DNA of 5,754 bases from a virus (Monodnaviria > Loebvirae > Hofneiviricota > Faserviricetes > Tubulavirales > Inoviridae). A program made the position numbers and the translations under genes. Location of the stretch: positions 1 to 5,754 of the IMG/VR virus record IMGVR_UViG_2698536559_000001. The stretch is one strand, 5' to 3'. Positions 279 through 452 of this stretch are shown in pieces. The notes below the pieces were generated by a model. The model did not search any database and was not told the DNA's origin. It was given only the letters and a program-made list of their open reading frames with translations. How positions within the stretch are numbered: the stretch's first letter is position 1; each line of letters opens with the position of its first letter.

Positions 279-452
279 ATGTCAGCTAATTCGGATTCGG
301 TTTCCACGCAAATTAATGCTGTTTGCGTGGGAATACCTGATGTGTCGGGGATTGATTCTTCGGCGTTTTTAACGGGATTTTCACTGCCAGTATTTTGTTT
401 TTTTCTTGGCATGATTATTTCCACAATCTGGAGTCTAATAAGGAGACTTTAA
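279..452 (+). CDS. Small hydrophobic protein (57 aa), candidate minor coat protein (pVII/pIX-like) or membrane protein
   Basis: ATG at 279 to TAA at 450-452, below the length cutoff of the supplied ORF track. The C-terminal half is hydrophobic (FLTGFSLPVFCFFLGMIISTIWSLIRRL) with a basic tail. It sits immediately upstream of the major coat gene, where Ff phages carry small virion-cap genes. The AGGAG ribosome-binding site of the next gene lies inside its 3' end. Confidence 0.35.
   Translation: MSANSDSVSTQINAVCVGIPDVSGIDSSAFLTGFSLPVFCFFLGMIISTIWSLIRRL

What the first reader, a model, noticed from the sequence alone, without database searches (positions are those of the whole stretch)
279..452. 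Unannotated 57-aa hydrophobic ORF upstream of the coat gene
It is below the ORF-track cutoff but has a proper ATG, fills the gap between the upstream gene and pVIII exactly, and ends in a membrane-like segment. It is a candidate for the small cap proteins (pVII/pIX analogues), although it is longer than the roughly 32-aa Ff versions and could be one fused or novel gene.
Basis: inference. Interest (0 to 1): 0.35.

Follow-up and report, generated by a model that had tools for sequence, protein, structure and literature searches.

The report
Small membrane gene before coat gene
The 57-codon reading frame just before the coat gene of this filamentous prophage is a real, conserved gene for a one-helix membrane protein. 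It is most likely a minor virion or assembly protein comparable to the M13 cap protein pVII, and it also carries a conserved DNA/RNA hairpin.

Summary
Observation confirmed. ATG 279 to TAA 452 encodes 57 aa. It starts 5 nt after the stop of the gene V-like gene and ends 2 nt before the pVIII start.

It is a real gene. The frame is kept in all 13 close relatives, even where the upstream gene or pVIII has been swapped. Pooled dN/dS is 0.17. Same-position homologues of 39-61 aa occur in relatives whose pI is only 50-58% identical (dN/dS 0.18-0.27).

The protein has an acidic N tail, no signal peptide, one long helix (residues about 27-56) and a basic C end (IRRL).

Nothing links it by sequence to Ff pVII or pIX (Pfam, NCBIfam, PDB and Foldseek gave nothing; hhalign at most 9.5%). 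The only links are weak ones to PHROG families of unknown function.

It is one gene, not two fused cap genes. A second small hydrophobic gene lies elsewhere, at 760-837 (25 aa) between pVIII and pIII. It is conserved across the clade (dN/dS 0.11).

Best reading: an inner-membrane protein that works like pVII, probably paired with the 25-aa protein. This rests on position and architecture, not on experiment.

Extra finding: a hairpin at 301-333 inside the gene is kept by compensatory changes in five lineages.

The parts
1..273 (+). 3' end of the gene V-like gene (141-aa protein in relatives); stop TAA at 271-273
   Evidence: The full-length protein in L001 matches phrog_30648 (E 6.5e-95, unknown function) and only weakly matches Pfam Putative_G5P (E 0.075).
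265..269 (+). Weak Shine-Dalgarno-like AAGAG, 9 nt before ATG 279. The start lies 5 nt after the upstream stop, so translational coupling is likely.
   Evidence: Read directly from the sequence. Function is inferred.
279..452 (+). ORF57: the 57-aa single-pass membrane protein that is the subject of the finding
   Evidence: frame conserved; dN/dS 0.17, 0.27 and 0.18 in three sub-lineages. (one helix at residues 27-56, acidic N tail, basic C end).
301..333 (+). Hairpin inside ORF57: arms 301-312 and 322-333, 9-nt loop. The 3' arm lies over the conserved Cys codon.
   Evidence: RNA fold -19.5 kcal/mol, z -5.1; core helix 95.9% paired over 7 sequences from 5 lineages, 3 of 7 pairs change on both sides, slid controls 24-57% paired.
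398..404 (+). T7 run in ORF57. An extra T joins ORF57 residues 1-42 to the pVIII frame, which is open from at least 368.
   Evidence: A 141-aa fused product, P0011, has the extra T at this run. P0014 (141 aa) and locus L012 are shifted at or near neighbouring T runs. These are probably mutations or assembly errors.
440..445 (+). Strong Shine-Dalgarno AAGGAG for gVIII, lying inside the last codons of ORF57
   Evidence: Read directly from the sequence; 9-nt spacer to ATG 455.
455..706 (+). gVIII, major coat protein precursor (83 aa)
   Evidence: phrog_2186 virion structural protein, E 2e-15. Pfam Phage_Coat_B, E 5.8e-4, which is below that family's cut-off.
724..745 (+). Terminator-like hairpin GGGCGG-ATAT-CCGCCC followed by T6, just after gVIII
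   Evidence: Read directly from the sequence. Inverted repeat I5. The consensus scan missed it.
760..837 (+). ORF25: 25-aa hydrophobic protein MWEFIFMMYGSLCGLCCVMGFKSNM, with GGAG at 750-753. Likely second small structural protein.
   Evidence: Present between gVIII and gIII in L001, L003, L005, L013, L014, L016-L019, L021, L022, L025 and L026. dN/dS 0.11-0.12. The positional counterpart in Vf33 matches phrog_25361 'minor head protein', E 6.7e-13.
1017..5255 (+). Rest of the structural and assembly module: pIII-like gene (1017-2624), pVI/DUF2523 (2642-2929), pI/Zot (2941-3999), pIV secretin (3996-5255)

Best explanation
ORF57 is a real gene of an integrative, Zot-type filamentous prophage of Escherichia.

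Shown: it encodes a 57-residue protein with no cleavable leader, an acidic N tail of about 28 residues, one long hydrophobic helix and a basic C end.

Inferred:
- It inserts into the inner membrane with the N tail in the periplasm and the C end in the cytoplasm, as small leaderless phage proteins do.
- It is made in small amounts by ribosomes coupled from the gene V-like gene. Ribosomes that finish it can restart on gVIII, whose ribosome-binding site lies in its last codons.
- It acts as a minor structural or assembly-initiation protein in the way Ff pVII (or pIX) does. Its helix would pack with pVIII at the end of the filament that leaves the cell first, and its basic C end would face the DNA.
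- The conserved 25-aa protein encoded at 760-837 is its likely partner.

It is an analogue, not a demonstrable homologue, of pVII/pIX. Relatives show that the N tail is a variable add-on, because the protein ranges from 39 to 61 aa.

A hairpin kept by compensatory changes overlaps codons 8-19. This adds a nucleic-acid-level constraint on the plus strand (mRNA or viral ssDNA) whose role is unknown.
For: Real gene:
- The same 57-codon frame occurs in 13 loci with 9 distinct DNA sequences. Of 22 variable sites, 12 are at third codon positions.
- Pooled dN/dS is 0.17 in this frame, against 0.27 to 7.3 in the other five frames.
- The frame persists where the upstream gene is unrelated (L002) and where pVIII is only 54-56% identical (L013, L014).
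- Same-position homologues are L017 (58 aa, tblastn E 5.7e-7), L016 (54 aa, E 2.2e-4), L025/L027 (61 aa), L018 (39 aa) and L026 (46 aa).
- dN/dS is 0.27 for L016-L017 and 0.18 for L018-L026.
- An exhaustive HMMER search adds P0143 (E 6.7e-4).

Architecture:
- The hydropathy peak is at residues 36-54. The N tail has charge -3 and no basic residue. The C end is IRRL.
- AlphaFold places a helix at 27-56, with pLDDT 74-93 over the last three 10-residue blocks.

Operon context:
- The stop-to-start distance to gVIII is 0-2 nt in the long-type relatives.
- The gVIII ribosome-binding site lies inside the ORF.

Precedents:
- In Xanthomonas phiLf-type phages the single small gene before gVIII is read as gVII. 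Its listed features are a TM helix, an acidic N end and a C-terminal Arg. An N36 mutant of it suppresses a packaging-signal defect (bioRxiv 10.1101/2023.12.30.573655 and 10.1101/2024.03.19.585677). The short homologues L018 and L026 end in Arg.
- In CTXphi the gene before cep, psh, is described as structural (PMC3545932).

Partner gene: ORF25 is conserved across the clade with dN/dS 0.11-0.12. Its positional counterpart in Vf33 falls in a PHROG annotated 'minor head protein'.
Against: - No sequence or fold evidence links ORF57 to pVII or pIX. Pfam and NCBIfam gave no hit at E up to 1. A PDB profile search gave only a chance hit. Foldseek gave none. hhalign gave 9.5% against M13 pVII and 1.1% against pIX.
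- The PHROG families it weakly touches (1147, E 0.008; 969, E 0.018) have no known function.
- No virion proteomics or genetics exist for this phage group. The phiLf preprint itself states that integrative filamentous phages generally lack gVII and gIX.
- At 57 aa it is nearly twice the size of pVII.
- Part of the N-terminal conservation is explained by the hairpin rather than by the protein.
- Similarity between single hydrophobic helices is weak evidence of common function.
Confidence: 0.55

Rival explanations
1. ORF57 is a real inner-membrane protein but is not part of the virion. It would be a non-structural helper (for example a factor that recruits DNA or pVIII to the pI/pIV export site) or a host-directed protein such as a superinfection-exclusion factor.
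For: The coding and membrane evidence is the same as for the best explanation. Integrative filamentous phages are known to use non-structural assembly proteins that Ff lacks, such as PSB15 of phiLf-UK. All PHROG families that ORF57 touches are of unknown function. The N tail varies greatly in length and sequence among relatives, from 39 to 61 aa.
Against: Its fixed position and tight coupling to gVIII fit a virion component better, as does its persistence through module swaps. So do its coat-like build and the precedents of phiLf gVII and CTXphi Psh. Exclusion or moron genes are usually at the edges of inovirus genomes and are poorly conserved.
Confidence: 0.3
2. The stretch is not translated. 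It is conserved because it is a cis-acting nucleic-acid element (the hairpin at 301-333, a promoter or leader for gVIII, or a recombination junction), and the open frame is incidental.
For: The DNA is unusually uniform, at 94-97% identity, across relatives with swapped flanks. The hairpin shows compensatory changes, including paired synonymous changes. PGAP does not call the gene in L001 or L002. About 0.8% of shuffles give such an ORF by chance.
Against: The hairpin covers only 33 of 174 nt. The frame, its start and its stop are kept at 50-57% nucleotide identity in L016, L017, L025, L018 and L026. The helix and basic end are conserved, and dN/dS is 0.18-0.27 where it can be measured. The short-type homologues do not show this hairpin but keep the ORF. 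Homologues are called as genes in RefSeq and GenBank.
Confidence: 0.04
3. ORF57 is a fusion of two ancestral cap genes (pVII plus pIX) into one protein, as the first reader suggested as an option.
For: Its length, 57 aa, is roughly the sum of two proteins of about 30 aa.
Against: It has only one hydrophobic segment; the N half is polar. Relatives shorten the protein to 39-46 aa by losing the polar N part, not a second helix. A separate second small hydrophobic gene exists at 760-837.
Confidence: 0.02

Closest known systems
Ff (M13/f1/fd) pVII and pIX, the two roughly 32-33-aa proteins of the cap at the end of the virion that emerges first
   Same: The gene lies between gene V and gene VIII in the same operon and is tightly packed. 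The protein is small and leaderless, with one hydrophobic helix, an acidic N end and a basic C end. The Ff cap is made of pVII and pIX (abstracts of PMC10480500 and PMC10175506). Here too there are two small hydrophobic genes (ORF57 and ORF25).
   Different: There is no detectable sequence similarity. ORF57 is 57 aa with a 28-residue polar N tail. The two small genes flank gVIII instead of both preceding it. Virion location is untested.
gVII of Xanthomonas phiLf-type integrative phages (phiLf ORF38, phiLf-UK ORF4)
   Same: It is a single small transmembrane gene directly before gVIII in a Zot-type integrative inovirus, with an acidic N end and a basic C end. In phiLf-UK it interacts genetically with the packaging signal.
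   Different: The phiLf protein is described as having its transmembrane helix at residues 7-29, so it is much shorter than ORF57. Its sequence was not on hand, so similarity was not tested. The 66-aa ORF at the same position in Cf1c falls in another PHROG, 10162.
Psh of CTXphi (core order psh-cep-orfU-ace-zot)
   Same: It is a small gene immediately upstream of the major coat gene of a Zot-type phage, and it is described as structural (PMC3545932).
   Different: The Psh sequence was not compared here, and the literature read here gives no experimental role at a particular end of the virion.
PHROG families 969, 1147, 3679 and 2924 (unknown function), e.g. Vf33 gp3 (Vpf81) and the 86-89-aa proteins of oral inoviruses Dulem virus 52 and D_HF5_61
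   Same: They hold the same position, between the ssDNA-binding gene and the coat gene, and have a C-terminal helix with a basic end. ORF57 residues 22-56 match the C-terminal part of phrog_1147 and phrog_969. The 39-aa homologue L018 matches phrog_3679 (E 1.7e-5) and phrog_969 (E 5.6e-4).
   Different: The matches for ORF57 itself are weak (E 0.008-0.018) and limited to the hydrophobic helix. The N-terminal domains are unrelated. None of these families has a known function.

Membership tests
Ff pVII (Pfam PF19978 Inovirus_G7P_2; phrog_7781) | Sequence match to the family profile | tested here: not met
   No Pfam hit at E up to 1 and no phrog_7781 hit. hhalign of the ORF57 family against M13 pVII gives probability 9.5% over 12 columns. 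The M13 pVII sequence used as the control does hit PF19978 (E 1.3e-21) and phrog_7781.
Ff pVII / pIX | Small leaderless protein with one hydrophobic helix, an acidic N end and a basic C end | tested here: met
   One hydropathy peak at residues 36-54. The N tail has 3 acidic and 0 basic residues. The C end is IRRL. AlphaFold places a helix at 27-56.
Ff pVII / pIX | Length of about 32-33 aa | tested here: not met
   ORF57 is 57 aa. Same-position homologues range from 39 aa (L018) to 61 aa (L025).
Ff pVII / pIX | Gene located between gene V and gene VIII and closely coupled to its neighbours | tested here: met
   It starts 5 nt after the upstream stop and ends 2 nt before the gVIII ATG. The gap to gVIII is 0-2 nt in L014, L016, L017 and L025.
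Ff pVII / pIX | About five copies at the leading end of the virion, in contact with the packaging-signal hairpin | not testable with these tools
   This needs virion proteomics, cryo-EM or genetics. Only single-chain structure prediction was available.
Ff pIX (phrog_10143) | Sequence match to the family profile | tested here: not met
   hhalign against M13 pIX gives 1.1% for the ORF57 family and 17.8% for the ORF25 family. Neither hits phrog_10143.
Upstream-of-coat proteins of Zot-type inoviruses (phrog_969, 1147, 3679, 2924; function unknown) | Sequence match to a family profile | tested here: inconclusive
   ORF57 matches phrog_1147 at E 0.0082 and phrog_969 at E 0.018, over the C-terminal helix only. 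L018 matches phrog_3679 at E 1.7e-5, and L019, L021 and L022 match it strongly. Vf33 gp3 matches phrog_2924 at E 4.8e-39 and phrog_969 at E 1e-6.
Upstream-of-coat proteins of Zot-type inoviruses | Position between the ssDNA-binding gene and the major coat gene, with a C-terminal helix and a basic end | tested here: met
Major coat protein pVIII (Pfam Phage_Coat_B), as a possible paralogue | Sequence similarity to the cognate coat proteins, and a signal peptide | tested here: not met
   hhalign of the ORF57 family against the pVIII family gives 0.7%. Smith-Waterman z-scores against shuffles are mostly below 3 and at most 3.5. The N-terminal 28 residues have no basic residue and no hydrophobic stretch, so there is no signal-peptide-like N end.
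CTXphi Psh | Sequence similarity | not tested
   The Psh sequence was not on hand. Only the shared position and the literature statement that Psh is structural were used.

The most novel reading that the evidence does not exclude
ORF57 and the 25-aa ORF at 760-837 together form the so far unidentified leading-end cap of Zot-type integrative filamentous phages, built from proteins unrelated in sequence to pVII and pIX. In addition, the covarying hairpin embedded in ORF57 would be a functional plus-strand element. It could be a packaging or initiation signal carried inside the gene of the protein that recognises it, or an mRNA element that sets the ratio of minor to major coat protein.
Probability: 0.12. 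Interest if true: 0.7.

Novelty: new variant of a known kind. Interest (0 to 1): 0.4.

Why it matters
Recent papers state that the tip proteins of integrative filamentous phages are essentially unknown, and that these phages seem to lack gVII and gIX. These phages include disease-associated ones such as MDAphi and CTXphi.

This analysis gives two concrete, conserved candidates, one on each side of the coat gene. They occur across prophages of Escherichia, Salmonella, Klebsiella and Serratia and in metagenome-derived inoviruses from saliva; Vibrio phage Vf33 has ORFs at the same two positions. The analysis also gives a conserved hairpin to test. The question can therefore be addressed directly with knockouts, virion proteomics and multimer modelling.

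The analysis also shows that standard annotation skips the gene in some RefSeq genomes. On its own, however, a small minor-coat-like gene before gVIII is what a specialist would expect.

Tried and rejected
- Whole-window and 3-kb searches of the phage collection found no related described phage at the DNA level. tblastn of ORF57 there gave only chance hits.
- The word-indexed protein search found only near-identical copies.
- Two scans of species-representative genomes found nothing.
- A viral-contig scan with the divergent alignment found nothing.
- The single metagenome hit, L020, is a GC-rich false positive with no inovirus genes.
- L015, fetched for a pI homologue, starts inside the pIII-like gene and so does not include the interval.
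- In the exhaustive search, P0141, P0142 and P0144 were rejected; P0141 and P0144 are repetitive proteins matched over a short stretch. P0147 is an unrelated protein mis-clustered with ORF57.
Foldseek against the PDB gave nothing.
- Rfam gave no credible family.
- The idea that ORF57 is a diverged copy of pVIII was tested and dropped.
- The antisense 74-aa ORF at 200-424 was dropped. It is cut to 23 aa in L002, L016 and L017, and its frame does not fit the substitution pattern as well.
- The hairpin was looked for in more distant positional counterparts (L019, L021, L022, Vf33) and not found. Cf1c has an unrelated perfect 10-bp inverted repeat in its 66-aa ORF.

Full report
CONTEXT. The window is the structural and assembly module of a filamentous (inovirus) prophage. 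Its parts, in order, are:
- the end of a gene V-like gene (to 273);
- the ORF in question (279-452);
- gVIII (455-706; phrog_2186, E 2e-15);
- a terminator-like hairpin (724-745);
- a 25-aa ORF (760-837) and a 60-aa ORF (844-1026);
- a pIII-like gene (1017-2624);
- pVI/DUF2523 (2642-2929);
- pI/Zot (2941-3999; Pfam Zot, E 2.7e-23);
- a secretin (3996-5255).

No described phage in the phage collection is similar at the DNA level. By pI protein, the nearest records are metagenomic oral inoviruses at 39% identity. Related prophages sit in E. coli chromosomes next to an IS110-family transposase gene and a replication gene.

THE OBSERVATION. ATG 279 to TAA 450-452 gives 57 codons. The upstream stop is at 271-273 and the gVIII ATG is at 455. 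The protein has a polar N tail of 28 residues with net charge -3, a hydrophobic stretch peaking at residues 36-54, and the end SLIRRL. An ORF this size closes inside the gap in 0.8% of base shuffles. Chance is therefore unlikely but cannot be excluded from this window alone.

IS IT A GENE? Yes.

(a) Close relatives.
- Thirteen loci from E. coli genomes, metagenomes and IMG/VR carry the same 57-codon frame with 9 distinct DNA sequences.
- Of 22 variable sites, 12 are third codon positions.
- Pooled pairwise dN/dS is 0.17 in this frame. The other five frames give 0.27 to 7.3.

(b) Mosaic relatives.
- The ORF stays 94-97% identical in DNA where the upstream gene is unrelated (L002, 29% aligned identity).
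- It also stays so where pVIII is replaced by a version 54-56% identical (L013, L014).

(c) Distant relatives.
- In prophages whose pI is only 50-58% identical, an ORF at the same position encodes a recognisably related protein.
- These are L017 from Klebsiella oxytoca (58 aa, tblastn E 5.7e-7), L016 (54 aa, E 2.2e-4), L025/L027 from E. coli (61 aa), and the short forms L018 (39 aa) and L026 (46 aa).
- Where divergence is not saturated, dN/dS is 0.27 (L016-L017) and 0.18 (L018-L026).
- An exhaustive HMMER search of 1.84 billion representatives added one more homologue, P0143.

(d) Annotation.
- The 58-aa and 61-aa homologues are already 'hypothetical protein' in GenBank and RefSeq.
- None of the 21 cluster members of the window's own type carries a name or accession.
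- PGAP leaves the interval empty in L001 and L002.
- The window's type occurs in 27 of 5,426 complete E. coli genomes.

WHAT KIND OF PROTEIN?
- AlphaFold (single sequence, mean pLDDT 70) gives one long helix at residues 27-56. Confidence is high over the last three 10-residue blocks, and the N part is of low confidence.
- The N-terminal 28 residues have no basic residue and no hydrophobic stretch, so there is no signal-peptide-like N end.
- With an acidic N tail and a basic C end, the positive-inside rule predicts N-out, C-in. This is the topology of leaderless phage proteins such as the Pf3 coat protein, which YidC inserts (established knowledge, not tested here).
- The alignment of homologues shows that the constant part is 'acidic tail, helix, I/V-[KR]-x-x end'. 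The N tail is variable and partly dispensable: it is absent from the 39-aa form.

COMPARISON WITH KNOWN FAMILIES.
- Pfam and NCBIfam gave no hit at E up to 1.
- A PDB profile search gave one chance hit, and Foldseek against the PDB gave none.
- hhalign against M13 pVII gave 9.5% and against pIX 1.1%.
- ORF57 weakly matches the C-terminal helix of phrog_1147 (E 0.008) and phrog_969 (E 0.018), both of unknown function.
- The short homologue L018 matches phrog_3679 (E 1.7e-5) and phrog_969 (E 5.6e-4).
- The proteins at the same position in Serratia (L019), Dulem virus 52 and Inovirus D_HF5_61 belong to phrog_3679.
- Vf33 gp3 belongs to phrog_2924 and also matches phrog_969 at E 1e-6.
- ORF57 therefore belongs, loosely, to a set of 'upstream-of-coat' membrane proteins of Zot-type inoviruses that nobody has characterised.
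- A relationship to pVIII was tested and not found.

ONE GENE OR TWO?
- No relative has two short genes in the interval.
- There is, however, a second small hydrophobic gene elsewhere. ORF25 (760-837, MWEFIFMMYGSLCGLCCVMGFKSNM) has GGAG 6 nt upstream of its ATG and lies between the gVIII terminator and gIII.
- It is present at that position in every enterobacterial and saliva-derived relative examined. These include the Klebsiella, Salmonella and Serratia prophages and both saliva-derived phages, and they share a pattern of conserved Gly and Cys/Trp residues.
- Its dN/dS is 0.11-0.12.
- The 30-aa ORF at the same position in Vibrio phage Vf33 matches phrog_25361, annotated 'minor head protein' (E 6.7e-13). 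Its similarity to ORF25 was not tested.
- Several ORF25 homologues have an acidic residue near the N end, and those of L016, L017 and L025 end in Arg. These are features that the phiLf preprint lists for gVII.

MECHANISM.
- Shown: ORF57 is a conserved, translationally compact gene for a one-helix protein in the virion-gene operon.
- Inferred: it is an inner-membrane protein incorporated at, or needed for, the start of filament assembly, as pVII and pIX are in Ff, with ORF25 as the likely partner.
- Precedent 1: in phiLf-type phages the single small gene before gVIII is read as gVII, and a mutation in it suppresses a packaging-signal defect.
- Precedent 2: CTXphi psh, at the same position, is described as structural.
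- Small supporting observation (by eye, n about 8): the C ends of ORF57 homologues resemble those of their own coat proteins. Examples are IRRL and IRSI in the window, VKGI and IKSI in L025, and a terminal Arg in both proteins in L018 and L026. This is as expected if both line the DNA-facing lumen.
- Against: there is no homology to pVII or pIX and no experiment. The phiLf authors conclude that integrative phages mostly lack these genes, and the MDAphi structure paper says the tip proteins are unknown.
- I give 0.55 to the structural or assembly-initiation reading, 0.3 to a non-structural membrane role, and a few per cent to 'not a gene' or 'a fusion'.

THE HAIRPIN.
- Inside ORF57, the arms 301-312 (TTTCCACGCAAA) and 322-333 (TTTGCGTGGGAA) pair, with one G-T pair and a 9-nt loop.
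- As RNA, 297-338 folds at -19.5 kcal/mol (z -5.1). As DNA, 270-460 has z -3.2.
- The distant homologues L016, L017, L025 and L027 have inverted repeats of different sequence at the same codons, with the 3' arm over the conserved Cys codon.
- I built an alignment of the two arms cut out in codon register, with the loops removed. On it, the 7-pair core is 95.9% paired over 7 sequences, and 3 pairs change on both sides.
- One of these is a pair of synonymous changes: Ser TCC to TCA together with Val GTG to GTT.
- Another is a change between the close relatives L025 and L027: GCC to ACT together with GCG to GCA.
- With the partner slid by 1-3 columns, only 24-57% of cells pair, and no shuffle in 500 reaches the observed score.
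- Caveats: there are only about five lineages, I built the alignment by hand, and I derived the structure from these same sequences.
- G-T pairs in the outer stem mean that the plus strand (mRNA or packaged ssDNA) is the functional one.
- The role of the hairpin is unknown. Short hairpins inside coding regions do serve as packaging signals in Xanthomonas phages.
- However, a longer GC-rich hairpin at 5556-5594, in the region after gIV, sits where the Ff packaging signal lies and is an equally good or better candidate. An mRNA role, in stability, processing or control of the ORF57:pVIII ratio, is also possible.

VERDICT. The gene is a new variant of a known kind, a small inovirus membrane or minor-coat-type protein. 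It is sequence-unrelated to pVII and pIX, carries an N-terminal extension and an embedded conserved hairpin, and has its probable partner displaced to the other side of gVIII. Interest is moderate.

Noticed in passing
window 760-837 (+): An unannotated 25-aa hydrophobic ORF with its own GGAG lies between the gVIII terminator and gIII. It is conserved in every enterobacterial and saliva-derived relative examined (dN/dS 0.11-0.12). The 30-aa ORF at the same position in Vf33 matches phrog_25361 'minor head protein'.
   Followed up: yes
window 301-333 (+): A hairpin inside ORF57 is maintained by compensatory changes in five lineages, including paired synonymous changes. Its function is unknown.
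   Followed up: yes
window 279-452 compared with L002, L013, L014: The ORF57 DNA is a conserved island, 94-97% identical, between modules that have been exchanged. The upstream gene is unrelated in L002, and pVIII is only 54-56% identical in L013 and L014. It may act as a recombination hinge or be constrained by the hairpin.
   Followed up: partly
window 377-404 (T4 and T7 runs); P0011, P0014, L012: Three independent public sequences are frameshifted at or near T runs within ORF57. In P0011 and P0014 this yields 141-aa products that join the N part of ORF57 to the whole pVIII precursor, whose frame is open from at least 368. They could be errors, mutational hot spots or real variants.
   Followed up: partly
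window 5556-5594: A GC-rich inverted repeat (15-nt arms, 93% complementary, 9-nt loop) lies in the GC-rich region after the secretin gene. It is also present in the closest relative, L007. It sits where Ff phages carry their packaging signal.
   Followed up: partly
window 844-1026 (+): A 60-aa ORF between ORF25 and gIII has weak Arc-like repressor matches (phrog_582, E 0.017). It is 57% identical in aligned DNA in L001 and L002 and absent in L003, L013 and L014, so it is an optional cassette.
   Followed up: partly
window 2100-2260 (+), within the pIII-like gene: A long Gly-Thr / Gly-Ser dipeptide repeat linker in the pIII-like protein varies in length among relatives. It is the only part of the window that matches unrelated phages at the DNA level.
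   Followed up: no
L001 2846-5817; L003, L013, L014, L016-L018: These prophages carry an IS110-family transposase gene next to the replication gene. The replication module itself is exchanged between two types, a Phage_GPA type (667 aa) and a Rep_trans type (about 380-400 aa). A phospholipase D-like gene follows the secretin gene in several relatives.
   Followed up: no
L024 (Xanthomonas phage Cf1c) 107-307: The unannotated 66-aa ORF between the ssDNA-binding and coat genes of Cf1c (phrog_10162) also contains a perfect 10-bp inverted repeat with a 9-nt loop, at 203-231.
   Followed up: no
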